The notes beneath the pieces are model-generated. The model ran no database searches and was not told where the DNA came from. It saw only the letters and a list, made by a program, of their open reading frames with translations. This document shows positions 16,526 to 52,511 of a DNA stretch of 64,000 nt, one piece after another. The stretch is from a bacterium. Lineage in GTDB: Bacteria > Patescibacteriota > Minisyncoccia > Phycocordibacterales > GWA1-40-21. Every line of letters starts with the position of its first letter. Position 1 is the first letter of the stretch. The position numbers were made by a program, and so were the translations under genes. The stretch is taken from the NCBI GenBank assembly GCA_037131755.1, contig JBAXQJ010000004.1, positions 1,094 through 65,093 on the forward strand. Direction: 5' to 3'.

Positions 16526-16972
16526 ATGAGTGCGACACTTATCCAAAACAAAAAAGCTTTCTTCAACTACGAAATCACGGAAAAATTTACCGCCGGCGTG
16601 GAGCTTTTTGGTTATGAAGTAAAGACCTTGCGTTCCAAGCAAGGCTCGCTTGATGGCGCTTATATTATCGTCCGGGGTGGCGAAGCGTATCTCGTCGGTT
16701 CAAACATACCCGCCTACCAACCCAAAAACGCGCCCAAAGAATACGACTCCAAGAGAAACCGCCGACTCCTTTTGTCCAAGAAAGAGATTTCTTACCTCTC
16801 AAACGCCGGCGACGCCCAGGGATTGACAATAGTGCCTATAGAGTTATATAATAGTGGGAAGTTTATCAAGCTGTCTTTCGGCATCGGCAAAGGAAAAAAG
16901 AAGTTTGATAAGCGCGAAGATATCAAAAAGCGCGAATCAAATCGCGACATTGAAAGAACTTTGAAATATTAG
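16526..16972 (+). CDS. smpB: SsrA-binding protein SmpB
   Basis: 148 aa; KKAFFNYEITEKFTAGVELFGYEVKTLRSKQGSLDGAYI matches SmpB. Confidence 0.9.
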   Translation: MSATLIQNKKAFFNYEITEKFTAGVELFGYEVKTLRSKQGSLDGAYIIVRGGEAYLVGSNIPAYQPKNAPKEYDSKRNRRLLLSKKEISYLSNAGDAQGLTIVPIELYNSGKFIKLSFGIGKGKKKFDKREDIKKRESNRDIERTLKY

Positions 16973-16980
16973 CTGGTATT

Positions 16981-17050
16981 TTGTAGACAGTAGATTGTAG
17001 ACAGAAAGAAATTTCTTCACACAGTATACGCTCTACCACATACTATCTAC
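16981..17050 (+). promoter_or_regulatory. GTAGATTGTAG-family promoter-proximal motif upstream of tmRNA
   Basis: ttgtagacagtagattgtagacag ... ctatctacaa inverted arrangement, with TTCACA / TACTAT -35/-10-like hexamers immediately upstream of the tmRNA 5' end. Confidence 0.35.
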
Positions 17051-17055
17051 AAAAT

Positions 17056-17473
17056 GGGGATGCATGTTTTGACAAAAAACCAAACCCTTTCGTGCAAAGC
17101 AGAGCTCCAACAACTCTTTAAAAGGTTGGAAATTGTAATTGCAAACACATTAGTTGCAAAGGCAAAGTCTCTTGTTTCTCCATATTTTGGAGTACAGGAT
17201 CTTGCTTTCGCCTACGTTGCTTAATCTTTTTAGATTAGCCTAGGCGGCGTCTCTCTCGCCTATTTCGCGGAGACGGGACGAGGCGTAATATACGCGAATA
17301 TATTTTGCAGTAGTCTCGACTGCAAACCGAGAACAAGAGAATCGGCTTATGATCATTTTTCTGATTTTGAAATCATAAGCTAAAATCCGTCACAAGACGG
17401 GACTAAATCAGATACGCTTTGTAGACTCGTCTGTGTTAATTTTTTGGACGCGGTTTCAATACCGCCATCTCCA
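17056..17473 (+). ncRNA. ssrA: putative tmRNA (SsrA)
   Basis: Begins GGGGATGCATGTTTTGAC (tmRNA-like 5' end) downstream of smpB. The 3' end CATCTCC-A can pair with 5' GGGGATG (one G-U) to form a tRNA-like acceptor, preceded by a T-arm-like GCGGTTTCAATACCGC. An internal ORF ends ...DLAFAYVA-TAA at 17222-17224. Not covariance-model verified. Confidence 0.5.
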
Positions 17474-17712
17474 CACTTTCAAAAATCCGCTCATTCTGAT
17501 GGGCGATTTTTGTTGTGTGGATATGAGCAAGCAAACTGCTTTGCTTGCGGGCGGTATTGAAAAGATTGGCGCTGTTTTGTCGGCAAAACCGCCAATCACG
17601 CGCCGTGGGCGGCAATTACCGCCATGTTTCTCAAACCCATTGACGAAACAACTGGAATGTGATAATTTTTTGACTGGAGTTTAAACCAAAAAAGTTAGAG
17701 AGGAATTGATAA

Positions 17713-22416: not shown

Positions 22417-22458
22417 TCCTAATTAAAAAATCATTCCGAAGAATGATTTTTTAATTAG
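22417..22458. other. perfect 19-bp AT-rich inverted repeat (possible terminator/attenuator)
   Basis: cctaattaaaaaatcattc-cgaa-gaatgattttttaattagg. Confidence 0.35.
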
Positions 22459-22622
22459 GATTGTTATGAGATATTCTCCTAGAAATATATCTAGGTGGGT
22501 GTCCGCAGATAGACGACCAAGGCCGCTACCGATGTAGAACTCCCGTGCAAAATTATTTAAGCTAGAAAATATCCCTAACAACCCTACCTATATTATACAC
22601 CCAAATAAACAAAAGCAAATGG

Positions 22623-23390
22623 TCAATAAACCCTTAAAATAGATATGATTCCGCTGGCACCGGTAGATACTCCGATGGTATCCACATTAGAGATAACGAT
22701 AGGCGTATTGGCCGGCACGGTCAATAAATTAGTTCCGGCTGACGTAGCCGAACTGACAATCCTGTCGTTACCGCAGAAACCATATAAACTCGTCGGCACG
22801 ACGGTCACTCCATTAATCGTCAGGTAATCATCGGCGCTGATATCTGTCTTAGCTTTCAAAATGACATCAAAAGGATACTGCTCGGTAGTGGTAGACCTGG
22901 AGGACTGAACGCACACCCCAGTACCCCTTGACGGAAACATCGCGCTTAAATTCAAAGTAGCAATCTCCTCCGGTAGACGAACACAAGTCCCCACCACTCC
23001 GAACAGGCTGGTGCCGGTGGCAATGTTAGCGGCAATTAGGTTTGGTTCAGCCGTCGATAACGACGAAGTCGAATAAAAGCCAGCATCGATAACCCCTGAG
23101 TTGTTTAGGCTTCGCCAAGAGACGGTGTTCCAGATGTCAGTCAGAGTATTGAGAGAGGGAGTGGGAATAGTCGCTGGCGCAAAAGCATGATTAGCCAAAG
23201 TAGCTCCGGTATTTGAGGAGATTTTGTTGAGGATATCATCCAAAGTGTACATCGACGCGGCGGGAGAGGAGGCAGGAACAAGAGAGCCGGCAATAACGGG
23301 GATTGTCAAAACAAAAGTAACGATCAGGGGTATGAGGATTTTCTGTCTGATATTTCCTTTTATCATAAGGCTATTATAGCAATTTAACAA
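22623..23390 (-). CDS. secreted protein, paralog family member A (shared N-terminal module)
   Basis: Signal peptide; the motifs SLVPASSP...YTLDDILNKISS and NIATGTSLFGVVGT are shared with the next two genes. Confidence 0.6.
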   Translation of the reverse strand: MLNCYNSLMIKGNIRQKILIPLIVTFVLTIPVIAGSLVPASSPAASMYTLDDILNKISSNTGATLANHAFAPATIPTPSLNTLTDIWNTVSWRSLNNSGVIDAGFYSTSSLSTAEPNLIAANIATGTSLFGVVGTCVRLPEEIATLNLSAMFPSRGTGVCVQSSRSTTTEQYPFDVILKAKTDISADDYLTINGVTVVPTSLYGFCGNDRIVSSATSAGTNLLTVPANTPIVISNVDTIGVSTGASGIISILRVY

Positions 23391-23417
23391 ACAAAAATCA
23401 TCATCCGCCTGTTAGAC

Positions 23418-24527
23418 TTATTGCACCAGGCTTCGGCCAGAGCCAGCATTGTAAAGATTGGCAATCTCCGTCTCAGTCAAAGTGCGATTCCAAATGGCCC
23501 CTTCATCAACATCACCATAATAATATCTCAAAAACGGTGCGCCGCTTTCCCCCGACCGATAATAGCCGCCCGGGAAATGACCAAGATGGGTATAGGCGCT
23601 CATTGTTCCGTCAACAGTCAAACTATTGGGAACTTTTACGCCGTCGACATAGACATTCAAAGTGGTGCCGTTAGCGGTAGCGGCAAAATGATGCCAATTC
23701 AGATCGGTAAGATGATAACCGGTACCTTTCCAATAGCCATTTAATACCATCAACTGGTTTGAAGAGACATCGCCATAGCTGTCACCGCCACCGATCATTA
23801 GAGCAAAAGTATCGGCACTCCAATCATGACCCCAGCCGATCATCTGACCGTTCCTCATGTTCAGCTGACTGGCCTTGGCCCAGACAGAAACACTGAAAAT
23901 TTCCTGCGTTGGCATATTATTCATATTCAGACTCACTTCACGCGCCCCATTGAAAGCAAAAGCATTGGCAAATTTGCCGGCACTGTAAGCAGCACTGCCA
24001 ATCGTCCAGGACGCATTATTGGAATTACCGGAATTATCGTCGGTATTGTCATTGCCAGGCCAATAGCCGATCATTCCGGCTCTTAAACCGCTCACGATCT
24101 GACCTTCCGTTGGCTGACACGCTGGCGGCACATAAGTGCCCACCACTCCGAACAGACTGGTGCCGGTAGCAATGTTGGCTGGCTGGAGATCGGTATCGAT
24201 ATCGGATAAGGTGGCAGTCGGGTAAATCCCCTTTTCTAAGATTGAGCTATCTGGATTAATGGTTTTATGGGAAGGAATGTTGTTCCAAAGTTCAGCTAGA
24301 GTCAAAAAAGTTCCAGCCGGAATCAGCTCGGGATTGTAAGCATGCGAAGAAACGGAAAAAGTACTGGAGGAAATCCGATTATTGATATCCGAAAGCGTGT
24401 AGGCAAAAGTGCCAGGAGAAATTGTTGGCGTAAGGGAGCCCGCAAAAGCGGAAAGCGTAAACAAAATGGCGCCAGACAGCAGATTGATCAGAATTTTGTT
24501 CGGCATTGTATTTAAGATTACTGGCAT
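23418..24527 (-). CDS. secreted protein, paralog B, with C-terminal LamG/concanavalin-like domain
   Basis: Signal peptide; shared N-module (YTLSDINNRISS...NIATGTSLFGVVGT); C-terminal jelly-roll-like segment (LNVYVDGVKV...LTETEIANLYN). Confidence 0.6.
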   Translation of the reverse strand: MPVILNTMPNKILINLLSGAILFTLSAFAGSLTPTISPGTFAYTLSDINNRISSSTFSVSSHAYNPELIPAGTFLTLAELWNNIPSHKTINPDSSILEKGIYPTATLSDIDTDLQPANIATGTSLFGVVGTYVPPACQPTEGQIVSGLRAGMIGYWPGNDNTDDNSGNSNNASWTIGSAAYSAGKFANAFAFNGAREVSLNMNNMPTQEIFSVSVWAKASQLNMRNGQMIGWGHDWSADTFALMIGGGDSYGDVSSNQLMVLNGYWKGTGYHLTDLNWHHFAATANGTTLNVYVDGVKVPNSLTVDGTMSAYTHLGHFPGGYYRSGESGAPFLRYYYGDVDEGAIWNRTLTETEIANLYNAGSGRSLVQ

Positions 24528-24922
24528 AGCAGACTGCCAGTCACGCCCAAAATGGTGGTGCTGGCTTTGATATTGCTGGGCACCAAATCAGTGTCGACTT
24601 GTGCTAAATTTGTTTGATCATAGATACCAGCCTCGATCGAGACAGTCGAGCTTGAAACTGTTTTGTGGGGTGGAATGGCGTTGTAAATTTCTTCCAAAGA
24701 CGGCATGGAGACAGCATTGGTCGCCACGGTTGGCTTCAAATCGTGTCCGGCTGAAACATAACCAGGGGTGGTAAGTTTTTGATAGATATCATTTAGGGTA
24801 TAGTAATTGGAAATCAAAGGGACGCTCGCTGTTGGCACAAGCTTGTCAGCGATTACCACGCCGCCAACGACAAAAAAGATGGCGACTAGATTGATTAGGA
24901 TGTTTTTGAATAAAGTATTCAT
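24518..24922 (-). CDS. secreted protein, paralog C (N-module only)
   Basis: Signal peptide; YTLNDIYQKLTT ... TTILGVTGSLLCQ resembles the N-module of paralogs A and B. Confidence 0.55.
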   Translation of the reverse strand: MNTLFKNILINLVAIFFVVGGVVIADKLVPTASVPLISNYYTLNDIYQKLTTPGYVSAGHDLKPTVATNAVSMPSLEEIYNAIPPHKTVSSSTVSIEAGIYDQTNLAQVDTDLVPSNIKASTTILGVTGSLLCQ

Positions 24923-24955
24923 ACCTGTATTATAGCAAACATTATCGCTTATGGA

Positions 24956-25761: not shown

Positions 25762-28596
25762 CTAAATCTTAAACGGCGACACGGCCGGAGCTGGCGGGGG
25801 CGGAACGTCTTTTTTTTCATATTTTTTCACAATCTCTTTTTCTACCTCTTCCCGCTCCCGGCCAAACTTGAGATAGGACAATTCTTTGAGTTTGGAAATG
25901 ATAGTTGGATCACCTTTTGGCGGCAGCATATTTTGGATATTGAACGGCTTGACCGGCACTCCTTTGGCCAGCATTTTTAGATAACAGTTGAAATTATCGA
26001 TATTCATAATGTCTCGGGCCGTAAAGACCGGCGCAAATTGTTTTTCCAAAAATTCGGCATCTTCGGAACCGACCCGGAAAGCCGCGATGGAACCAACGTT
26101 GCCAAAGACGGAGTCTTTGATCTTTTCATCGAGTTGTTTGATATATTGATGAGCGATATTGAGTGACAGTTTGTATTTTCGCGCTTCGGACAAAATTGTT
26201 GAGATCGAATCAGTGGTAATGTTTTGGAATTCATCGATGTACAAATAAAACGGCGGGGTATCGGTGCCCAGAGAATCGACTCGCGACAGGGCCGCCATCA
26301 AAATCTTGCCGACGACGATCAAACCGATCAGGTTGGCATTGATATCTCCCAGACGGCCTTTGGACAAATTGACCAGCAGGATTTTCTTGTTATCCATGAT
26401 TTCGCGAAAATTGAAAGATGATTTTTCCTGGGCTACCACCGGTCGCATAATCTCGTTTGCCAAGAAAACATCAAACTTGCTGGTGATATACGGCACGATA
26501 TTGGCGAGCGACGCTTCGCCGCCAGCCTTTTCCGCCACCTCCCGCCAGAACTGAACCACAACTGGGTTTTTACAATGAGACAGTTTTAGCTCGCGAAACT
26601 GCTTATTGGCCAGAACCCGCGAAACATCCAAAAGAGTGTTGCCGGTTTCTGGATCTTCCAAGACCAGCATTGTCGCGTTGCGGAAATACTGCTCGAACAT
26701 CGGTCCACCCGCCACTTTCATATCAAACAATTTATTAAAAATCGACAGCATTTCGTTTACCACAAAAGTCTTTTGTTCCGGGAAACGAACATCGTACTCG
26801 AGCATATTGAGGGCCATCGGTCGTGGCGTATAGGCCGGATCGAAATAAATCACATCTTCGTAACGCTCCTTGGGAATGATCGATAAGATATCCTGAATAT
26901 CCGAACCGTGCGGATCGATCATACAGACACCGTCACCGTTTTTAATATCCTGGGCGATCATATTCTTGAGCAGAGTCGTCTTACCAGTACCAGTCTGACC
27001 GATGGCATAGAAATGTCGGAGGCGATCCTCTTTGGCCATATAGATTTTGGTCTCAACGTTTCGGTTTGTGTTTGTTCCCAAGAGAATTCCCTCCGTTGGT
27101 AGGCCAAGCGGCGCCGGTGCCGTCCCGCTCTTGGAGATTTTCACGCCCGGTGAAGCACGCATCTCGCCCGATGGTAAATGCAACATCGTTGTGATTTCCC
27201 GGATATTCAAAGGCATTTTCTGACTATTTTCGAACACTCGAAAGGAAAACTCCCGGAGGACTTTTTTGAGCTCCCGGCCTTTCATTCGGGCAAAGGATAC
27301 TCGATTACTGCCGGTATTTTCAAACTGATTAAAAGCTGATTCAAGGTCAATCAGGATTCTTTCGGCTTCGGACTCGGTTGGGGCGGAAGCAACTAATCGG
27401 ATATTGGTTTCGACGGTTGGTGACTGGATCTTGGCATTCAAATTTTCCAAGATCGCCTTGTCCGGCAAATTCCTTGGGTCTTCGCCTTTTTTGTCTTTTT
27501 CCTTATCCTTGTCTTTCTTGTTTTTTTCCGCTGACTTAAAAAGGGCTTTGCCGAAATCCTTCACTACCGACTTGAGCATGCCGGCAAAAGTCAGACGGTC
27601 CATCTTGATCGCGTCCTTCAGTTTCATCCCCTTATCAATATCTTGCAAAGCTCGCTTGTAGAAACGGGTGTAATGCTCCCCGACCGGCTTGAACACCAGC
27701 TGAATGGCGGCACCGGCGCCGTCTTTGCTGATTTTTGAGAAAGCGTTCAAGATTATATTTAGCGGATCATAATCAAAATGCTCATAATATTTGATCGGAT
27801 AAAAATGATTGGCGAGCTGTTTACCACAAGATACGACCGACTTACCGGTTTCATTAAAAATATTATAATCGTCTTTCTTCTCGAAAATCTTGGCGTTGGG
27901 GAAAATGGCCAGGATCTGTTTTTCAAACAAACCGACCTTGCTGTTAGGTACGGCGACATAGAAAACCGTTTCCTCACTGCCATTACTGTTAGCCAGTTCC
28001 ACCGTAAAATACTGCGGACCGTCCGTCTCATCAGAAACAGCAATCATGCCGGCATAAAACTGCTCCATTTTGGAAATTAATTCTTTCAAGTTACGCTGCT
28101 TGTCTTTTTCTTCTGTCGGTTCCGGCAAAGAAACTTCAAACAAGGTCATCTTGAGCGACCTGAAGAAAGGCGATTTTTCCAATCGGCCGGCAATCGGCAA
28201 GCCCGCCTTGATATATTGAACCAAGAAGCGGTGGAAATCGTCATCCAAATGCGAATCGTTCATTTTTTCCACGATGGACAAGGCATTCATCAGGCCTTTG
28301 GATTGCAAAACGGTCACCAGCTCTTCCATTTTGGTATCATGCTCTTCCGGCATTAAATCCAGGACGATTGCGTCAATTTCTTTTGGTTGCAACTGATACT
28401 CCGGTTCCAAGACTTTCTCTGGTTTTTCGGCTTTGTAGTCGATGATCTTTTCGGTAATCACCGCTTCACGAACCGGCTCTAGACCTTTTTCCGCAATCGT
28501 CTTTTCGTGCTTGGCCACCTGGGCGCGCAAAAAATTCAATTCCTCCTGGGGAGAACTGAATTTCTGTTCCATTTTTTCAAAACTACCTTCGGTCAT
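25762..28596 (-). CDS. VirB4/TraC/VirD4-superfamily P-loop ATPase (FtsK/HerA-like) with large N-terminal domain of unknown function
   Basis: 944 aa; Walker A AIGQTGTGKTTL; Walker B LYIDEF; downstream R-finger/HQ...QL region; no N-terminal TM helices. Confidence 0.6.
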   Translation of the reverse strand: MTEGSFEKMEQKFSSPQEELNFLRAQVAKHEKTIAEKGLEPVREAVITEKIIDYKAEKPEKVLEPEYQLQPKEIDAIVLDLMPEEHDTKMEELVTVLQSKGLMNALSIVEKMNDSHLDDDFHRFLVQYIKAGLPIAGRLEKSPFFRSLKMTLFEVSLPEPTEEKDKQRNLKELISKMEQFYAGMIAVSDETDGPQYFTVELANSNGSEETVFYVAVPNSKVGLFEKQILAIFPNAKIFEKKDDYNIFNETGKSVVSCGKQLANHFYPIKYYEHFDYDPLNIILNAFSKISKDGAGAAIQLVFKPVGEHYTRFYKRALQDIDKGMKLKDAIKMDRLTFAGMLKSVVKDFGKALFKSAEKNKKDKDKEKDKKGEDPRNLPDKAILENLNAKIQSPTVETNIRLVASAPTESEAERILIDLESAFNQFENTGSNRVSFARMKGRELKKVLREFSFRVFENSQKMPLNIREITTMLHLPSGEMRASPGVKISKSGTAPAPLGLPTEGILLGTNTNRNVETKIYMAKEDRLRHFYAIGQTGTGKTTLLKNMIAQDIKNGDGVCMIDPHGSDIQDILSIIPKERYEDVIYFDPAYTPRPMALNMLEYDVRFPEQKTFVVNEMLSIFNKLFDMKVAGGPMFEQYFRNATMLVLEDPETGNTLLDVSRVLANKQFRELKLSHCKNPVVVQFWREVAEKAGGEASLANIVPYITSKFDVFLANEIMRPVVAQEKSSFNFREIMDNKKILLVNLSKGRLGDINANLIGLIVVGKILMAALSRVDSLGTDTPPFYLYIDEFQNITTDSISTILSEARKYKLSLNIAHQYIKQLDEKIKDSVFGNVGSIAAFRVGSEDAEFLEKQFAPVFTARDIMNIDNFNCYLKMLAKGVPVKPFNIQNMLPPKGDPTIISKLKELSYLKFGREREEVEKEIVKKYEKKDVPPPPAPAVSPFKI

Positions 28597-28639: not shown

Positions 28640-29611
28640 TCATCTGTTTATTATTTTACCCATAAGCTTATATCCATTTCCATGACTTAACATCCCTAAA
28701 TATGATGCCGCTGTTTCTTTTTTCTGACTTTCCTCTAATCTCTTAAACATTTTGTTTTTAGTACTTGTCCTTAATACCCTATGATTCGGAAAATGCACCC
28801 AGCCCAAAAAATCCATACCAGATGCCAGGGTTTTTATAAAAATCTTTTGGGGATGCATACGCAATTTTAATTTTTGCTCCAGAAATTTGCTGATTATAGG
28901 CACCAGTTTTTCCAATTCACTTTTATCCTGCGAGAAAAAAACAAAATCATCGGCATACCTTATGTAATATCCTGCTTTCAACTTATGCTTTACAAATTGG
29001 TCAAATTCGTTCAGATACACATTCACCAAGAGCTGAGAGGTTAAATTACCGAGCGGCAAGCCCTTATAAATCATACCGCTATGGAAACTTTTAATGATAG
29101 TTCGCAATAAAACAAGAACATTCCGGTCTTTTATATTTTTCTTCAGAATTTCAAACAGTATTTTCTGATCAATGGACGCAAAACACTTCCTGATATCCCC
29201 TTTCAAAATCCAAACGGTTTTAGTGTGATTAAAAGACGCCCTTTTGCCAAAATTCCTGAACCTATCTAGGGCTTTGTGTGTTCCTTTTCCTAACCGGCAA
29301 GAATACGAATCAAAAATAAATTTTCGGTCAAAAAACGGATACAAAATCCGGTAAACCGCCCGGTGCAACACCCTGTCCCGCACGCTTGCCTTGTGTATGT
29401 CTCTCGGCTTCGGATCATTTACCTTGAAATTCTCGTAATTGTCATGAACATAAGTTTTGTTTTTCAAATCATCATGCAGGTCAATCAGATTGTCCATCAA
29501 TCTCAGTTTGAATTCCGGCACATCTTTCTTATCCTTTTTACCCCTTGAAAATTCCTGCCAGGCAAGGAGTAAGTTTTCCAAAGATATGATATGGTCATAG
29601 GCATGAGTCAA
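28640..29611 (-). CDS. diversity-generating retroelement reverse transcriptase
   Basis: 323 aa, RT domains only; YADD box (YIRYADDFVFF); DGR-type motif 4 LPLGNLTSQ ([I/L]GxxxSQ) in place of the group II QGxxxSP; TTG start at 29611. Confidence 0.8.
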   Translation of the reverse strand: MTHAYDHIISLENLLLAWQEFSRGKKDKKDVPEFKLRLMDNLIDLHDDLKNKTYVHDNYENFKVNDPKPRDIHKASVRDRVLHRAVYRILYPFFDRKFIFDSYSCRLGKGTHKALDRFRNFGKRASFNHTKTVWILKGDIRKCFASIDQKILFEILKKNIKDRNVLVLLRTIIKSFHSGMIYKGLPLGNLTSQLLVNVYLNEFDQFVKHKLKAGYYIRYADDFVFFSQDKSELEKLVPIISKFLEQKLKLRMHPQKIFIKTLASGMDFLGWVHFPNHRVLRTSTKNKMFKRLEESQKKETAASYLGMLSHGNGYKLMGKIINR

Positions 29612-29633
29612 AAATTTTCTAACAATAATGTCA

Positions 29634-29647
29634 CCCCCCCCCCCCCC
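29634..29647. repeat. homopolymeric C14 (G14 on minus strand) tract
   Basis: 14 consecutive C, 22 nt upstream of the RT start codon and between an ATG (29628) and the Avd-like reading frame. Confidence 0.9.
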
Positions 29648-29781
29648 GCAACACCCTGCCCGTCATTAACAGCCTGAAAGACGCTTATTTTCTCTGGATT
29701 TCCTATTTTGTCCATCTGCCTAATATACACAAATATTCGCTTGGTGAAAATGTTAGCAAATTATTTATTGAGACTATTGAA

Positions 29782-30006
29782 ATGACGGCTTATGCCGAGT
29801 TTTTGACCAGAACGGAAAAATTACCTTATATAAAAGTAGCAGTACGAAAATTAGATACACTAAAAGTTATGATTCAAATAGTCTGGGAAATAAAGGCTTT
29901 GGACGAGAAAAAATATATTGCTTTGTCAGAAAAACTGAACGAGACCGGCAAGATGCTTGGTGGCTGGCATAATAAATTAGCCAAAGAAAACTCCCCGACT
30001 AAATAA
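29782..30006 (+). CDS. avd: Avd-like accessory protein (four-helix-bundle family), N-terminally truncated in this frame; frame extends upstream to 29629 without a start codon
   Basis: C-terminus EKKYIALSEKLNETGKMLGGW resembles the Avd/TIGR02436 family. In-frame upstream segment ENAYFLWISYFVHLPNIHKYSLGENVSKLFIETIE also resembles the family N-terminus but lacks an ATG. The ATG at 29628 is in the -1 frame, across the C14 tract. Confidence 0.5.
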   Translation: MTAYAEFLTRTEKLPYIKVAVRKLDTLKVMIQIVWEIKALDEKKYIALSEKLNETGKMLGGWHNKLAKENSPTK

Positions 30007-30028
30007 TCGGGGAGAAATAAAGAGAGTA

Positions 30029-30150
30029 GCGGGACCGAGAAGGCAAACCCATTGTCACTGTTCCACCTGTTGTCAGGGTTACCGTTGTAGGCATTGAGCC
30101 TGTAGTCGTTGTACCGGTTCGTACCGAGCACGTTCGGGTTGCCGTCAGAA
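30029..30150 (-). repeat. DGR template repeat (TR)
   Basis: 122 bp, 109/122 identical to 30648-30769; all 13 mismatches are A (minus strand) in this copy. Confidence 0.85.
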
Positions 30151-30631
30151 ATCGTAATGAAACCATCTGTAGCGTTACCCTGGAATACTCGTCGGGACGC
30201 ATAAGTCTGTGTGATCTAAAATCACCCAGTTTCATTACCAAGTATCTTTATTTTTTATAAAGTGTCTGCATAAATCCTCTGTCTCAAACCGTGGCCCAAA
30301 ACATTCTCAACTTATGGATACTGGATTCGGCGGCAACAAACCTTGGCCTGTTACTTATACTCGCCTACTACCGATTTTATTCTAGCACAAAACTGTATTT
30401 TATCTGAAAAACGAAACCACCCTTTTAAAGGTGGTATTCTCGGAGTCTTTCGGCCATTTGTATTACAAGTGTAGCAAGTATAGAGAGATAGTCAATAATA
30501 AAATTTGAGCATTTTAAAACCCCATACTTTCGTATGAGGTTCCGATTCTACGCTGTATTCGGAAAGCGTTGTGACTTTGTCACATTTTTTCGAAGCCAAG
30601 GACAAAGACTCCGAGTGCCAGCGCCTAAATC

Positions 30632-31300
30632 CTAGGCCTGAGCACCAACTTGCGGGACCGAGAAGGCAAACCCACCGCCACCGCTCCACCTGCGGTCAGG
30701 GTTACCGTGGCAGGCAAAGAGCCTGTAGTCGTTGTACCGGTTCGTACCGAGCACGACCGGGTTGCCGTCAGAATCAGGAATAGGTTCGTGCATGGTGATA
30801 ATCCAGTCCAAACCCATTTCCTTGATTTCCTCATCCGAGAACATGTCCCGGATCAAGCAGGCTACTTCGGCATGCGGATCAGTCATCTTCCGTTTCTTGG
30901 CGTTACCACGAATATTCTTCGTGATTCGGTCATTGTCGGAGAACAACTTTCCAGGGATAACACCAATCTGGTGAACCGTCCCTGCCTTGGTCGGCTTAAA
31001 GTTCTTGTGTCGGAGCACGCTTTGGGCGTAACTGCCAACAGGTAAACCTTTGCCATTCAAGTGAACGATCCACTCTTCGCCGGTTTTCCCGTTCGAGACG
31101 ACCGTGAAATAAATCACGCCGTCCGCGTCTCGGGTCCACTTCATACCATCATTGAACCGCCCCTCGATTGCCCGCTGGAGAAAAGCATCAAGTTTTTCCG
31201 GATCAAATCCGTATTCCTTCTGAAGGAAAACCTGACGACCGATTTCCGCCAACTTACCGCCCAGTCTCGCCTGCAGATCGCCATTAAGTTTTGTACTCAT
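30632..31300 (-). CDS. DGR target (variable) protein, probable C-type-lectin-like fold with C-terminal VR
   Basis: 222 aa; the VR encodes the C-terminal NPD.R...GFAFSV segment, which resembles CLec-type VRs; no signal peptide. Confidence 0.7.
   Translation of the reverse strand: MSTKLNGDLQARLGGKLAEIGRQVFLQKEYGFDPEKLDAFLQRAIEGRFNDGMKWTRDADGVIYFTVVSNGKTGEEWIVHLNGKGLPVGSYAQSVLRHKNFKPTKAGTVHQIGVIPGKLFSDNDRITKNIRGNAKKRKMTDPHAEVACLIRDMFSDEEIKEMGLDWIITMHEPIPDSDGNPVVLGTNRYNDYRLFACHGNPDRRWSGGGGFAFSVPQVGAQA
30648..30769 (-). repeat. DGR variable repeat (VR) at 3' end of target gene
   Basis: Counterpart of the TR. The 13 differences all fall at TR adenines, mostly within AAC codons: TR peptide LGTNRYNDYRLNAYNGNPDNRWNSDNGFAFSVP versus VR LGTNRYNDYRLFACHGNPDRRWSGGGGFAFSVP. 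Confidence 0.85.
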
Positions 31301-31586: not shown

Positions 31587-32360
31587 TTATAACATAGTCA
31601 ATATTTCCGCTCCGTCTTTGGTTATCACAATCGTATGCTCAAAATGAGCGCTTCTCTTGCCATCGGCGGTCCGATAGGTGTAGTCGTCATCATCTTGGAT
31701 AATATGCTTACTCCCCTCGTTTAACATCGGTTCAATGGCCAGCACCATGCCGACTTTCAATTTCTCCCCTTTTTCTTCCAGGCAATAGTTTGGCACATAA
31801 GGATCTTCGTGGGGCTTGTAGCCGACACCGTGGCCGCACAATTCCTCCACAATCCCATAGCGGAGCGGTCGGACATATTTTTCAATCGCATAGCTGATAT
31901 CGCGGACATGGTTACCCGCGAGAGCAGCAGCGATTCCCTCGTCCAAAGCGCTTTTTGTGACACTGATTAATTTTTGTGCCGCCTCATCGATTTTTCCCAC
32001 TGGTACAGTAACAGCATGATCAGTAAAAAGGCCTTTGTGATTTAACCCCATGTCGAGTGACACAATATCACCCTCTTTCAAGATAATCGGCTTTTCGTTG
32101 GGAATACCGTGAACAATCACATCGTTGACCGACACGCAAATAGCGGCTGGGTAAGCACGCTTGACCCCCGGCGGTCGATAATTCAGAAAGGCTGCTTTAT
32201 CACCATTTTCTTCGGCTAGTTTGATGGCCAGATCGTTTAAATCATTAGTGGATACTCCGGGTTTTACCGCTTTGGCCACTTGGCTCACGATAAAAGCTAG
32301 GCGTTTCCCGCCCTCGCGCAGTATCTCTATTTCTTCTGGTGTTTTAATCGTAACCGCCAT
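31587..32360 (-). CDS. map: methionine aminopeptidase type I
   Basis: 257 aa; the metal-ligand pattern (D, D, H, E, E) typical of MAP is conserved. Confidence 0.9.
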   Translation of the reverse strand: MAVTIKTPEEIEILREGGKRLAFIVSQVAKAVKPGVSTNDLNDLAIKLAEENGDKAAFLNYRPPGVKRAYPAAICVSVNDVIVHGIPNEKPIILKEGDIVSLDMGLNHKGLFTDHAVTVPVGKIDEAAQKLISVTKSALDEGIAAALAGNHVRDISYAIEKYVRPLRYGIVEELCGHGVGYKPHEDPYVPNYCLEEKGEKLKVGMVLAIEPMLNEGSKHIIQDDDDYTYRTADGKRSAHFEHTIVITKDGAEILTML

Positions 32361-32410
32361 AATAATGCTAATTATTACAGCCGATAGCTAAAATAGCAAG
32401 TCTGGATAGC

Positions 32411-32603
32411 AAGAGCGAGCCTTTGCCGCTTGGAAAATTCTCTAAGGCAAAGCGAGTTATTGCTTTTTGCGGGTTAGCGGAGCCAGCTTAGAAAATTAAA
32501 GAATTTTTTAGAAAAATCAAACTGTTTGAGGAATATTCTGATATGACGAGTTTTTGATTTTTCGTTAAGAAAAATGACTTAATTTTCAAGCTGGCGCAGC
32601 GCT
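32411..32603. repeat. MITE/ERIC-like intergenic repeat, copy 1
   Basis: About 135-bp core (gcgggttagcggagccagcttagaaaattaaag ... gatatgacgagtttttgatttttcg ... ttaattttcaagctggcgcagcgc) is more than 85% identical to 44892-45025; internal terminal inverted repeats ccagcttagaaaattaa / ttaattttcaagctgg. Confidence 0.7.
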
Positions 32604-32604
32604 A

Positions 32605-32633
32605 GGCCCGCCCAAATCAGATTTGGGCGGGCC
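32605..32633. other. GC-rich 13-bp perfect stem-loop downstream of adk
   Basis: ggcccgcccaaat-cag-atttgggcgggcc; no adjacent U-run. Confidence 0.4.
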
Positions 32634-32661
32634 GTAAGCAAAAGGTAATGACGAGCGATCC

Positions 32662-33294
32662 TTATAGTCCCAATTTATTTATTATCTCCTGATGGACTTC
32701 TTCAATGGTTTTTTCACCATTGATATCCAAGAAAATATAATTGGTATTGTCTTTGTAATAATTGATCGTTGGCATCACTTCGGCATCAAACCATTTCAGC
32801 CTTTTTTCAATCGCCTCCTGTTTGTCATCCTTGCGGGCCCGGCCTTCCAATCTCTTTTTTGCCCACTCCCGGCTAACATTCATATAAATGACTACCGGTA
32901 AAGACACCTTGTAGAAAGTCAAAGCCGAATCAAGCAATTGCGCTTCGTGCAATTTTCGAGGACAGCCATCAAAAAGAAGATTCTCTTTGCCGGTATAATG
33001 GGTGAACAAATAATTTTCCCATAATGCGACCATCACTGCCTCCGGCATCAAACCGCCAGCTTCCATAATCTCTTTCGATAATTTCTGGGTGTAGGTCTTA
33101 CCCTTCACAAATTCGCGAAGGAAAGCGCCGGTTTCGATATGCAGGGTCTGGCAAGATTTATCTTTTTCACACAGGAATTTTGATAGTAAATCCGCCTGAG
33201 TCCCCTTGCCGCAACCAGATCGGCCAATAAAAATATAAGCGCGTGGAATAGACCACATCGGTTCCTTCTTTTCTCGTTTAAAAAAATTTAACAT
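32662..33294 (-). CDS. adk: adenylate kinase
   Basis: 210 aa; P-loop GRSGCGKGTQ; lid/NMP-binding regions. Confidence 0.85.
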   Translation of the reverse strand: MLNFFKREKKEPMWSIPRAYIFIGRSGCGKGTQADLLSKFLCEKDKSCQTLHIETGAFLREFVKGKTYTQKLSKEIMEAGGLMPEAVMVALWENYLFTHYTGKENLLFDGCPRKLHEAQLLDSALTFYKVSLPVVIYMNVSREWAKKRLEGRARKDDKQEAIEKRLKWFDAEVMPTINYYKDNTNYIFLDINGEKTIEEVHQEIINKLGL

Positions 33295-33402
33295 GGGAAA
33301 ATTATAACATATTTTAAAAAGTTAGTGTTATTGAAAGTAGTGAGATATTGCTTTTTAAAAGCATTACGGAGTGAAATTTATAGCAATAAATTTCATGAGT
33401 AT

Positions 33403-33432
33403 AGAAAAAGTGCCGCGTCGGCGGCACTTTTA
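33403..33432 (-). terminator. rho-independent terminator after rplE (operon ends here)
   Basis: gtgccgc-gtcg-gcggcac with flanking A5/T4 runs, about 30 nt downstream of the rplE stop. Confidence 0.55.
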
Positions 33433-33464
33433 TCGTGGTTTTAAAAAGTAATATCGAACGGTTT

Positions 33465-34022
33465 TTATTTCTTAGCATCGTCAGCTTTGAATGGGAAGCC
33501 GAGATATTCCAGGAAGGCAGCTGCTTCAGCCTTATTCTTTGCTGTTGTATTTACCGTAATAGTCATCCCGAAAACATCTTTCAGTTCTTCATCGGCTGTT
33601 TCTGGGAAAATAGTGTTTTCTTTGATACCAATGGAATAGTTACCCATTTCATCAATACCTTTTCTTAGGATACCACGAAAGTCTTTAGTTCGAGGGAAAG
33701 CCACCAAAACCATTTTATCGACAAAAGCCATCATTCTGTCGCCACGCAAAGTGACAACCAAGCCAACCGGGTCACCTTGTCGAACTTTGAACGAAGCGAT
33801 CGACTTCTTGGCCCCGCGAAGCGCCGGCTTCTGGCCGGTAATTTTGACCACTCGATCAGTAATAGTTTCGATTTTCTTCTTATCCTTGAGGGAACCGATA
33901 CCAACATTCACCACCACCTTCTGGAGCTTTGGCACCTGCATGATATTTTTGTAACCCATCTTACCCTTTAGGGCTTCAAAGGTTTTCTCCTGCTTTTCTT
34001 TGGTTGTAATAATTTTTGACAT
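33465..34022 (-). CDS. rplE: 50S ribosomal protein L5
   Basis: 185 aa; matches the L5 family. Confidence 0.9.
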   Translation of the reverse strand: MSKIITTKEKQEKTFEALKGKMGYKNIMQVPKLQKVVVNVGIGSLKDKKKIETITDRVVKITGQKPALRGAKKSIASFKVRQGDPVGLVVTLRGDRMMAFVDKMVLVAFPRTKDFRGILRKGIDEMGNYSIGIKENTIFPETADEELKDVFGMTITVNTTAKNKAEAAAFLEYLGFPFKADDAKK

Positions 34023-46014: not shown

Positions 46015-46300
46015 AAATGATTTTTAAAGAGTGAAACGATTATAAAAATCTTTACCCTGTCAAATACCGCTTCACGGTAATCCGCCCTGGGCGGATTATT
46101 TGACGGGGTTGAAAATATATTCGTCAAGCTCATTATTTTCTAATAAATCTCAAACAAAACCACAGAAGTCTTTAAACTTCTGCAACTCGTTTAAATTCAA
46201 CTCATAAAGCGACAAAATCGCTTAGAAACGCAGGCATACAGCCAAGTAGCTAACGTTGCCGAGCACTATAGCATAGGTTTTGGCCAAATGTAAAGCTCGG

Positions 46301-51722: not shown

Positions 51723-52433
51723 TTATGCCCTCCAGCTCTTGATTATTTCTTCCTCATTCTCCGGCGAAACAGATTTCTGAAATTTTACCCCCTTGACCCC
51801 CTTCACTCTCCTTTCACATTCCGCCCAGGTCGCATCCTTATAGACTACCCCGCCAACCAGACTCACGTAGGAATAGGCTTTGGCATTGGAATTGGTTTTT
51901 TTGATTTTTTTCACGGTATCATGACCGACGTTATGAATATCGATTTTGTAATCAGAGATTTTCCCAGCAAATAATTTTACTTTCTCACCGAGAGCCAAAC
52001 CCGAAGCAATCTCGTCACAGCGTTCATTGCCAGCCACGCCAATATGCCCGCCGACATAATTCCATTTTATCTTTTTCCCTTGAGCCGCTGTCGCCAATTT
52101 TTCCCACAAATCGCGATTGGAAACATCCTCTTTGTTTTTCGTTTGCCAGCCGTTTTTCTGCCAGCCAAAAACCCACCCCGTCATGCCGTTGATCACGTAT
52201 TTAGAATCCGTATTAACTACGATGTTTTCCTTTACCCCTTGTTTATCAACCAAACTCAAGGCTTCCAGCGCTCCGGTCAATTCCATCCGATTATTGGTCG
52301 TATGCTTGTCGAATCCCCCCAGTTCCACCACCCGATCACCCACGACCACGATCGCTCCCCACCCGCCAGGACCGGGATTACCTTTGGAGGCACCGTCAGA
52401 GAAAATAATTACTTTATCAGTCATAAACGACAT
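51723..52433 (-). CDS. rnhA: ribonuclease HI with C-terminal hybrid-binding (HBD/viroplasmin-like) domain
   Basis: RNase H catalytic residues (FSDGASKGNPGPGGWG, ...E..., ...D..., HIGVAGNERCD); C-terminal AYSYVSLVGGVVYKDATWAECERRVKGVKGVKFQKSV matches the HBD consensus. Confidence 0.8.
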   Translation of the reverse strand: MSFMTDKVIIFSDGASKGNPGPGGWGAIVVVGDRVVELGGFDKHTTNNRMELTGALEALSLVDKQGVKENIVVNTDSKYVINGMTGWVFGWQKNGWQTKNKEDVSNRDLWEKLATAAQGKKIKWNYVGGHIGVAGNERCDEIASGLALGEKVKLFAGKISDYKIDIHNVGHDTVKKIKKTNSNAKAYSYVSLVGGVVYKDATWAECERRVKGVKGVKFQKSVSPENEEEIIKSWRA

Positions 52434-52511
52434 TATAGCCTAATTTTAAAACAAAAAGAAAGGCGGCCTCGTAGTAGAGGTCGCCTTGTGAGACTTGCGT
52501 CTCGTTTCGGG

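What the first reader, a model, noticed from the sequence alone, without database searches (positions are those of the whole stretch)
22623..24922. Three tandem secreted paralogs sharing an N-terminal module with divergent C-terminal domains (one LamG-like)
All three start with a signal peptide followed by a conserved roughly 110-aa module (Y-T-L-x-D-I…, NIATGTSLFGVVGT) and then diverge. The middle gene adds a concanavalin/LamG-like jelly-roll. A modular, tandemly expanded surface-protein family is typical of adhesins or host-interaction factors in episymbiotic bacteria.
Basis: seen in the sequence. Interest (0 to 1): 0.5.

Follow-up and report, generated by a model that had tools for sequence, protein, structure and literature searches.

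The report
Headless-plus-headed secreted stalk protein cassette
Three neighbouring genes encode exported proteins built on one shared, still unannotated N-terminal stalk module: one is the module alone and two carry different binding heads. This is a conserved cassette of probable surface lectin-like adhesins, interesting mainly for its architecture and not shown to be a new mechanism.

Summary
Genes A (24518-24922), B (23418-24527) and C (22623-23366), all on the minus strand, share a signal peptide and a module of about 105 aa (BLASTP E 3e-13 to 1e-25). B adds a Laminin_G_3 domain.

- This is not a recent tandem expansion. The cassette, a headless A first and then one or two head-bearing paralogs, recurs in at least six other related metagenomic genomes. 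Their heads are interchangeable: two LamG types, a DUF1080-like domain, Listeria-Bacteroides-like repeats and a lineage-restricted domain.
- The shared module is not specific to episymbionts. It is a leader plus one copy of a roughly 48-aa hairpin repeat. It matches 3,376 representative proteins, is often iterated up to about 30 times, and mostly sits in front of DUF1566/Lcl_C heads. It also occurs in phage virion proteins.
- The module has no Pfam or NCBIfam model and no match in the PDB.
- All cassette proteins carry one conserved cysteine and a proline-rich hinge right after the module. It is the only cysteine in mature A and B.

I propose Sec-exported lollipop-type binding proteins on a common stalk, possibly linked into oligomers by disulfides. 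The heads evolve more slowly than the module, and no diversifying selection is visible.

The parts
24518..24922 (-). Gene A: headless subunit (134 aa), made of a signal peptide, the shared module and the tail ...SLLCQ.
   Evidence: ORF. Module HMM E 2.3e-43. A-type orthologs are always the first gene of the cassette.
24848..24922 (-). A signal peptide (aa 1-25, MNTLFKNILINLVAIFFVVGGVVIA|DK).
   Evidence: Read from the sequence. The -3/-1 rule applied is general knowledge. No signal-peptide predictor was available.
24533..24847 (-). A shared module (aa 26-130): a leader with two short TLxDIYxK-type helices, then one stalk repeat of about 48 aa ending in GVTGS.
24524..24526 (-). A hinge cysteine (C133), the only Cys of the protein.
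23418..24527 (-). Gene B: module plus LamG head (369 aa; 362 aa if it starts at the ATG at 24506, 11 nt after the A stop codon).
24135..24440 (-). B shared module (aa 30-131 of the 369-aa reading).
24117..24119 (-). B hinge cysteine (C137, in ...GTYVPPACQPTEG), the only Cys of B.
23460..23945 (-). B head: Laminin_G_3 / concanavalin-A-like jelly-roll (aa 195-356).
   Evidence: Pfam E 2.4e-14. Weak NCBIfam TafC hit on the same region. PDB 4qvs, an S-layer domain protein, E 2.5e-4. 79-82% identical between cassettes.
22623..23366 (-). Gene C: module plus a small lineage-restricted head (247 aa).
   Evidence: (P0001).
22986..23288 (-). C shared module (aa 27-127). Its last 50 nt or so are 90% identical at the DNA level to the same stretch of B.
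   Evidence: (repeat D2, 22981-23030 against 24130-24179).
22983..22985 (-). C hinge cysteine (C128, in ...GVVGTCVRLPEE). Two further Cys (152, 198) lie inside the head.
22626..22982 (-). C head (aa 129-247): no Pfam, NCBIfam or PHROG family. Only a few related clusters exist in 5.8 billion proteins.
   Evidence: The AF2 model is of low confidence.
24929..24936 (-). GCTATAAT -10-like box 6 nt upstream of the A start codon (possible leaderless or short-leader promoter).
   Evidence: Read from the sequence. The function is inferred.
23373..23380 (-). GCTATAAT -10-like box 6 nt upstream of the C start codon.
   Evidence: The function is inferred.
22417..22460 (.). Perfect 20-bp inverted repeat between C and the next gene. 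It is terminator-like and probably marks the end of the cassette transcript.

Best explanation
A, B and C form a conserved cassette of Sec-exported proteins that sit on the cell surface or are released. All three are built on one N-terminal scaffold. After the signal peptide comes a leader with two short helices, then one copy of a roughly 48-aa beta-hairpin stalk repeat, then a single conserved cysteine in a proline-rich hinge. A is the scaffold alone. B displays a conserved LamG (lectin-type) head and C a small lineage-specific head. The scaffold acts as the spacer and assembly part, and the heads bind ligands, most likely glycans or other surface polymers. The overall plan resembles lollipop adhesins such as Legionella Lcl. 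I further infer, without having shown it, that the scaffolds associate with each other and are locked by a disulfide at the hinge cysteine, so that headless A pairs with head-bearing B and/or C. Shown: the homology, the domain make-up, the conservation and variability of the cassette, the repeat nature of the module, and the conserved cysteine. Inferred: export, ligand binding, oligomerisation and the disulfide link.
For: Homology of the module. LamG head. Cassette recurrence with A always first and the heads swapped: window/L001/L002 have A-LamG-C; L003-L008 have A-LamG-C at a different site; L010 has A, another LamG, then LamG; L027 has A and a DUF1080-like head; L032 has A and a head of Listeria-Bacteroides-like repeats (the repeat type is my reading of the sequence, not a Pfam result); the P0141 contig has a 136-aa gene followed by a LamG gene. 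The module is a leader plus a repeat: 3,376 representative proteins at E<=1e-3; profile positions 2-62 occur once, right after the signal peptide; positions 59-108 are iterated up to about 30 times, with periods of about 47 or 80 aa. Heads on the same module: Lcl_C in 50 of 85 relatives, LamG_3 in 3. The module evolves faster than the heads: 45-52% against 70-82% identity, dN 0.35-0.53 against 0.13-0.20, as expected of a spacer. AF2 on three repeats gives locally confident hairpins (pLDDT 71.6) but pTM 0.31, which fits an elongated shape. One Cys lies 1-6 residues after the module in all 11 cassette proteins from 4 genomes. It is the only Cys in mature A and B, and it is absent from the stand-alone Lcl_C-fused relatives. 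N-modules within one genome show recombination or gene conversion: X and B of L010 are 93% identical, and B and C of the window are 90% identical over 50 nt against 57% over the whole module. Lcl is a trimeric lollipop with an N-terminal helix, a repetitive stalk and a DUF1566 head (PMC11162425).
Against: There is no experimental or structural evidence for export, binding or assembly. The monomer AF2 model of C is poor (pLDDT 60, pTM 0.31), and no multimer model could be run. One cysteine per chain can link only pairs, so a fully disulfide-linked trimer is not possible. Whether this probably anaerobic organism oxidises thiols outside the cell is unknown. Conserved gene order among genomes whose EF-G is 91% identical could simply be inherited synteny. 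The N-terminal hydrophobic segment could be an uncleaved membrane anchor instead of a cleaved signal. LamG and DUF1080-type folds also occur in enzymes. No anchoring motif was seen (no LPXTG, no lipobox).
Confidence: 0.5

Rival explanations
1. The three are independent monomeric secreted binding proteins. They are ordinary paralogs that share a leader or spacer, each works alone, and A is a decoy, a regulator or a decaying remnant.
For: Relatives with the same module occur as single genes fused to Lcl_C, with no A-type partner nearby. C has its own promoter-like box. No assembly machinery is encoded nearby.
Against: A is retained and always comes first in every cassette seen. It is under purifying selection (dN/dS about 0.17 in L003 against L010), so it is not decaying. 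The unpaired hinge Cys is conserved in all cassette proteins but absent from the single-gene relatives.
Confidence: 0.28
2. The cassette encodes a fimbria assembled by strand donation, analogous to haloarchaeal Tat-fimbriae. A would be the major subunit, B the LamG tip adhesin and C an adaptor or anchor, polymerising through the shared N-terminal domain.
For: The gene logic matches TafA/TafC/TafE: a module-only protein, a module-plus-LamG protein, and a third module protein (PMC11821415). NCBIfam TafC hits the B head at E 2.4e-7. A comes first in the operon, as major subunits often do.
Against: The TafC hit covers only the LamG part, at 30 bits against a cutoff of 410. There is no twin-arginine motif. 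The AF2 models show short helices and hairpins, not an Ig-like sandwich lacking a strand (low confidence). In relatives the repeat is iterated within a single chain, so length comes from tandem repeats and not from polymerisation. No dedicated signal peptidase or anchor gene lies in the cassette.
Confidence: 0.1
3. The proteins are secreted glycan-processing or nutrient-scavenging proteins. The jelly-roll heads (LamG_3, DUF1080/3-keto-disaccharide-hydrolase-like) would be catalytic or substrate-capturing modules for host or environmental polysaccharides, not adhesins.
For: One ortholog head matches PF06439 (3keto-disac_hyd), weakly. The Pfam family matched by the B head is described as 'Concanavalin A-like lectin/glucanases superfamily'. 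The heads are strongly conserved, as expected for a fixed substrate.
Against: No glycoside hydrolase family hit and no catalytic motif was identified. Other heads on the same scaffold are typical binding modules (Lcl_C; the L032 head of Listeria-Bacteroides-like repeats, my reading of the sequence). A has no head at all.
Confidence: 0.1
4. The apparent shared module is a compositional artefact of Ser/Thr/Ala-rich secreted proteins.
For: The module is rich in S, T, A and G.
Against: Composition-adjusted BLASTP E-values reach 1e-25. There are 28 invariant columns. Profile hits reach E<1e-30 for 79 representative proteins.
Confidence: 0.01

Closest known systems
Legionella collagen-like protein Lcl and other DUF1566 (Pfam Lcl_C, PF07603) lollipop proteins (PMC11162425)
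   Same: Both have a signal peptide, a short N-terminal helical region, a repetitive stalk and a C-terminal lectin-like head. Of 85 relatives of the window's module, 50 carry an Lcl_C head.
   Different: The stalk here is a roughly 48-aa hairpin repeat (a single copy), not collagen GXY. The window proteins have no DUF1566; their heads are LamG, a novel domain, or none. Trimerisation is unknown. A separately encoded headless chain and a hinge cysteine are not features of Lcl.
Haloarchaeal Tat-fimbriae TafA/TafC/TafE (PMC11821415; NCBIfam NF052521 TafC)
   Same: Clustered genes share an N-terminal domain: one is the domain alone, one adds a C-terminal laminin-G head, and a third is a minor variant. 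There is weak sequence similarity between the LamG heads (E 2.4e-7).
   Different: Export is by Sec-type signals, not Tat. The N-terminal domains show no detectable homology. The predicted secondary structure is not a donor-strand beta-sandwich. The score is far below the family cutoff (30 against 410 bits). The systems are archaeal and bacterial respectively.
Phage virion proteins of PHROG 38337 and 28171 (function unknown), encoded between the major head and head-tail adaptor genes
   Same: They contain the same hairpin repeat (...AGYYxxTxLxxVDxDLxxxNIxxGxxIFGVxG). The best Foldseek BFVD hit is a 'Tail protein' at 5e-5.
   Different: They have no signal peptide and no leader, and they sit in a phage structural module. 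Their role (decoration or fibre) is itself uncharacterised.
Complement C1q A/B/C chains and other heterotrimeric collagen-like lectins (analogy from general knowledge only)
   Same: Tandem paralogous genes encode chains that share an N-terminal cysteine-containing region and a stalk, and that assemble with interchain disulfides into a head-bearing complex.
   Different: There is no homology. All C1q chains carry heads and have a collagen stalk. Assembly is not shown for the window proteins.

Membership tests
Pfam Laminin_G_3 (PF13385), head of B | Score above the Pfam gathering threshold over the whole domain. | tested here: met
   54.1 bits against 27.6, profile positions 4-151 of 151.
Lcl-type DUF1566 lollipop adhesins | C-terminal DUF1566/Lcl_C domain. 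| tested here: not met
   No Lcl_C hit in A, B or C. It is present in 50 of 85 relatives of the module.
Lcl-type DUF1566 lollipop adhesins | Collagen-like GXY repeat stalk. | tested here: not met
   The sequences contain no GXY tracts. The stalk is the 48-aa hairpin repeat.
Lcl-type DUF1566 lollipop adhesins | Trimeric assembly. | not testable with these tools
Tat-fimbriae (TafA/TafC/TafE) | Twin-arginine signal peptide. | tested here: not met
   The n-regions MNTLFKN, MPNK and MIKGNIRQK contain no RR motif.
Tat-fimbriae (TafA/TafC/TafE) | NCBIfam TafC equivalog score. | tested here: not met
   30.2 bits against a cutoff of 410, covering the LamG region only.
Tat-fimbriae (TafA/TafC/TafE) | Ig-like N-terminal beta-sandwich with an N-terminal donor strand. 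| tested here: inconclusive
   The AF2 monomer shows two short helices and a hairpin, but at pLDDT 60.
Type IV pilins | Class III signal peptide (G|F/M-T-L-x-E) and an N-terminal hydrophobic helix in the mature protein. | tested here: not met
   No such motif is present, and there is no N_methyl hit.
DGR variable (target) proteins | A variable repeat matching the template repeat of the nearby DGR, with adenine-specific differences. | tested here: not met
   The TR (30029-30150) has a single VR (30652-30773), in a different gene. No copy lies in 22623-24922.
Sortase-anchored or lipoprotein surface proteins | A C-terminal LPXTG sorting signal, or an N-terminal lipobox cysteine. | tested here: not met
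   The C-termini are ...SLLCQ...GRSLVQ and ...ILRVY. No Cys lies at the signal peptide cleavage site.
Unnamed 'leader + 48-aa hairpin repeat' family (no Pfam or NCBIfam model) | A leader (GSLxP...YTLxDIYxKL...TLxEIYNAIP) directly after the signal peptide, followed by at least one repeat ending in NIxxGxxIFGVxG. | tested here: met
   All three proteins match the full profile (E 4e-36 to 2e-43). The family is defined.

The most novel reading that the evidence does not exclude
The cassette encodes a previously undescribed hetero-oligomeric surface display system. A headless 'light chain' (A) would be covalently paired, through a conserved hinge cysteine, with interchangeable head-bearing 'heavy chains' (B, C and their variants). 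All would be built on a stalk repeat that has no solved structure and no annotation, and that is shared with thousands of DUF1566 lollipop proteins and with phage virion proteins.
Probability: 0.2. Interest if true: 0.7.

Novelty: new variant of a known kind. Interest (0 to 1): 0.45.

Why it matters
If the model holds, it defines a large unannotated extracellular stalk module (about 3,400 representative clusters, with no Pfam, NCBIfam or PDB counterpart). It also defines a compact form of it, a headless chain plus chains with swappable heads, in small-genome bacteria whose surface biology is poorly known. The strongly conserved LamG head points to a fixed ligand, so it is a concrete candidate for attachment studies. 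The conserved unpaired cysteine gives a simple biochemical test. If the proteins turn out to be independent monomers, the finding is an ordinary family of secreted lectin-like paralogs.

Tried and rejected
- An exact look-up of B in public assemblies found nothing. A near-identical contig was reached through A instead.
- The GTDB genome scan with the B-ortholog alignment returned only distant LamG relatives at 24-37% identity, so neither organism nor taxonomy could be assigned.
- PDB sequence searches with the module profile and the repeat profile found nothing meaningful.
- AF2 on full-length C gave pLDDT 60 and pTM 0.31, too poor for a fold search.
- A tblastn of a phage-like relative against INPHARED phages found no match.
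- dN/dS was uninformative. The near-identical strain L001 has 0-5 differences per gene, and for the distant cassettes dS is saturated (pS 0.6-0.8), so only relative dN is usable.
- The idea that the cassette is a target of the neighbouring DGR was rejected.
- Pilin, lipoprotein and sortase-substrate readings were rejected from the sequence.
- A functional link to the neighbouring VirD4/TraG-like ATPase or to NDK was rejected, because the cassette sits at another site (M50 peptidase to S12) in relatives.
Full report
**Observation.** Three ORFs lie head to tail on the minus strand at 22623-24922.
- A is 24518-24922 (134 aa).
- B is 23418-24527 (369 aa). The ATG at 24506, 11 nt after the A stop codon, is the start called in the near-identical contig L001 and gives 362 aa.
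- C is 22623-23366 (247 aa from the ATG; a TTG at 23390 is the mechanical ORF start).

Each begins with a basic n-region, a hydrophobic stretch of 15-20 residues and an AXA-type site (VIA|D, AFA|G, VIA|G). This is read from the sequence; no predictor was available. A module of about 105 residues follows and is truly homologous:
- BLASTP with compositional adjustment gives E 6e-20 (A/B), 1e-25 (B/C) and 3e-13 (A/C).
- 28 alignment columns are invariant, including YTLxDI.
- B and C share the identical 15-mer ANIATGTSLFGVVGT.

After the module, A ends. B continues into a Laminin_G_3 domain (Pfam E 2.4e-14, above the gathering score). C continues into 120 residues with no family match. A six-frame HMM scan finds no further copy in the 64 kb.

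**It is a conserved cassette, not a local expansion.** A profile of the three modules recovered relatives from metagenomes, and their contigs show the same arrangement:

| Source | Arrangement | Site |
|---|---|---|
| L001, L002 (99.6-100% nt identity to the window) | A, LamG, C | between the NDK gene and a DUF2238 gene |
| L003-L008 (EF-G 91% identical to the window) | A (142 aa), LamG (361 aa), C (251 aa) | between an M50 peptidase gene and rpsL |
| L010 | A, a paralog with a different LamG head, then the conserved LamG paralog | same M50 to rpsL site |
| L027 | A, one paralog with a head weakly matching PF06439 (DUF1080-like) | same site |
| L032 | A, a paralog whose head I read as Listeria-Bacteroides-like repeats (not scanned against Pfam) | after the M50 gene |
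| Contig of P0141 | a 136-aa gene, then a LamG paralog | after the M50 gene |

In the window the M50 to rpsL junction is empty, so here the cassette sits at a new site. This argues against a functional tie to its present neighbours: NDK, a VirD4/TraG-like ATPase and a DGR.

Identity matrices show that A proteins group with A proteins, and, less sharply, B with B and C with C. The triplication therefore predates these genomes. A-type genes are always first and always accompanied by at least one head-bearing paralog.

**What the shared module is.** A profile search of 1.84 billion representative proteins gave 3,376 hits at E<=1e-3 and 79 at E<=1e-30. Mapping the matched stretches shows two parts.
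- Profile positions 2-62 form the leader (consensus GSLTP...YTLxDIYxKL...TLxEIYNAIP). It occurs once, immediately after the signal peptide.
- Positions 59-108 form the repeat (...AGYYxTTxLxxVDxDLxxxNIxxGxxIFGVxG). It is iterated up to about 30 times in proteins of up to 2,267 aa, with periods of about 47 or about 80 residues.

Among 85 relatives of 640 aa or fewer, 50 end in an Lcl_C (DUF1566) domain, 3 in Laminin_G_3 and 1 in an FGE-sulfatase-type domain. So the window's module is the minimal version, a leader plus one repeat, of a widespread leader, stalk and head architecture.

The leader and repeat have no model in Pfam, NCBIfam or PADLOC-independent libraries I could query, and no sequence match in the PDB. 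They do match two PHROGs of unknown function. In two IMG/VR viral contigs, proteins carrying the repeat lie between the major head and head-tail adaptor or neck genes. They are therefore probably virion surface proteins.

**Structure.**
- AF2 on full-length C, with 34 sequences, was poor (pLDDT 60, pTM 0.31). It gave two short helices at the TLxDI motifs, a moderately confident hairpin at NIATGTSLFGVVGT, and an unresolved head.
- AF2 on three consecutive repeats of relative P0140 gave pLDDT 71.6 but pTM 0.31. Each period has beta-hairpins and two short helical turns, which fits an elongated, beads-like stalk.

The fold therefore remains undefined. The only safe statement is that the module looks like a spacer and not a globular domain.

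**Clues that the three proteins work together.**
1. A is strictly co-retained with the headed paralogs and always comes first (see the table above).
2. Every cassette protein examined (11 proteins, 4 genomes) has one cysteine 1-6 residues after the module, followed by a Pro-rich segment (CQPTEG, CVRLPEE, CAPPPL, CTPPTP and similar). In mature A and B it is the only cysteine. C has it plus a pair inside its head. Single-gene relatives with Lcl_C heads lack it. An unpaired, conserved cysteine in an exported protein is most simply explained by an intermolecular disulfide. This is an inference.
3. Modules within one genome exchange sequence. In L010 the two headed paralogs have 93% identical modules, signal peptide included, on unrelated heads. 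In the window, B and C are 57% identical in DNA over the module but 90% identical over its last 50 nt.

**Evolutionary rate.** Against the near-identical strain there are too few differences to analyse. Against L003 and L010, synonymous sites are saturated, so dN/dS is unreliable. Relative dN is still clear:

| Region | dN |
|---|---|
| Module | 0.35-0.53 |
| Heads | 0.13-0.20 |
| EF-G | 0.06 |
| M50 peptidase | 0.27 |

Where dS is measurable, dN/dS is 0.17-0.35 for modules and about 0.04 for the LamG head. The heads are conserved, which suggests a stable ligand. Nothing indicates an arms race.

**Mechanism proposed.** The three are Sec-exported lollipop-type binding proteins. The leader and repeat serve as stalk and association surface, the hinge cysteine locks chains together, and headless A pairs with LamG-bearing B and/or with C. 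The heads bind a conserved ligand, probably a glycan. I put the general model at about 0.5 and the disulfide-linked hetero-oligomer at about 0.2. The rivals are:
- independent monomeric lectins (0.28);
- a tafi-like strand-donation fimbria (0.1). The gene logic is the same as TafA/TafC/TafE, but the signals are Sec-type, the TafC hit covers the LamG part only and is far below the cutoff, and in relatives the repeat is iterated within single chains;
- secreted glycan-processing proteins (0.1).

**Comparison with known systems.** The closest functional analogue is Lcl. It is a trimeric lollipop with an N-terminal helix, a repetitive stalk and a DUF1566 head, and most relatives of the module carry exactly that head. 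However, the window proteins fail the defining features of Lcl: they have no DUF1566 domain and no collagen repeats. They also fail the tests for Tat-fimbriae, type IV pilins, DGR targets, sortase substrates and lipoproteins. They do belong to a large, unnamed family defined by the leader plus the hairpin repeat.

**Verdict.** This is a real, well-defined feature and a new variant of a known kind (a modular secreted adhesin-like protein). Its notable points are a headless partner, a conserved hinge cysteine, swappable heads and an unannotated stalk repeat of wide distribution. Interest is moderate (0.45). That the organism is a CPR bacterium was not verified: the GTDB scan found no ortholog.

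Noticed in passing
window 28640-31300: A complete diversity-generating retroelement. It has a reverse transcriptase (28640-29611, minus strand; RVT_1 E 1.3e-24), an Avd-like ORF (29782-30006, plus strand; NCBIfam DivGenRetAVD E 1.2e-10), and a template repeat (30029-30150). The variable repeat (30652-30773) lies at the C-terminus of a 222-aa ORF (30632-31300, minus strand) that has no signal peptide and no Pfam match. All 13 TR/VR differences fall at TR adenines. It does not target the three paralogs.
   Followed up: yes
window 25762-28596 (minus strand): A 944-aa ATPase with weak VirD4/TraG/TrwB coupling-protein and HerA/DUF87 matches (the L001 copy also carries DUF8128). It lies between the DGR and the NDK gene. 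Its role is unknown. It is not linked to the cassette in relatives.
   Followed up: partly
window 24929-24936, 23373-23380, 52432-52439 (minus strand): The octamer GCTATAAT lies 6-7 nt upstream of an ATG at three genes, including A and C. This suggests promoters for leaderless or very short-leader mRNAs in this genome.
   Followed up: partly
window 46015-46300, compared with L003 9388-12837: In at least five related genomes the cassette sits between an M50 peptidase gene and rpsL. In the window that junction is empty (286 bp) and the cassette lies 21 kb away, next to the NDK gene. The whole cassette has therefore been relocated.
   Followed up: partly
window 31587-34022 (minus strand): The ribosomal protein L5 gene (33465-34022) is followed directly by the adenylate kinase gene (32662-33294) and the methionine aminopeptidase gene (31587-32360). 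The usual S14-S8-L6-L18-S5-L15-SecY stretch of the spc operon is not at this position. I did not check where those genes are.
   Followed up: partly
L009 6898-8717; L028 4190-5669: In two unrelated contigs, the single-gene relative (module plus Lcl_C head) lies immediately downstream of a PG_binding_1 (peptidoglycan-binding) gene. This may hint at how such proteins are held at the cell wall.
   Followed up: no
L029 1026-1532; L030 1103-2653 (IMG/VR contigs): Phage proteins built from the same hairpin repeat (PHROGs 38337 and 28171, function unknown) are encoded between the major head protein and the head-tail adaptor or neck genes. That position is typical of head decoration or fibre proteins.
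   Followed up: partly
L010 1088-3248: Two adjacent paralogs have 93% identical signal peptides and modules but unrelated LamG heads (about 32% identity). The module is a chimera, B-like in its first half and C-like in its second. This indicates recent recombination or gene conversion between cassette genes.
   Followed up: partly
window 22417-22460: A perfect 20-bp, AT-rich inverted repeat with a 4-nt loop lies in the 223-bp spacer between gene C and the DUF2238 gene. It is probably a terminator.
   Followed up: no
window 16526-17476: The SmpB gene (16526-16972, as annotated in the syntenic L001) lies next to a tmRNA gene (17056-17476; Rfam 92 bits).
   Followed up: no
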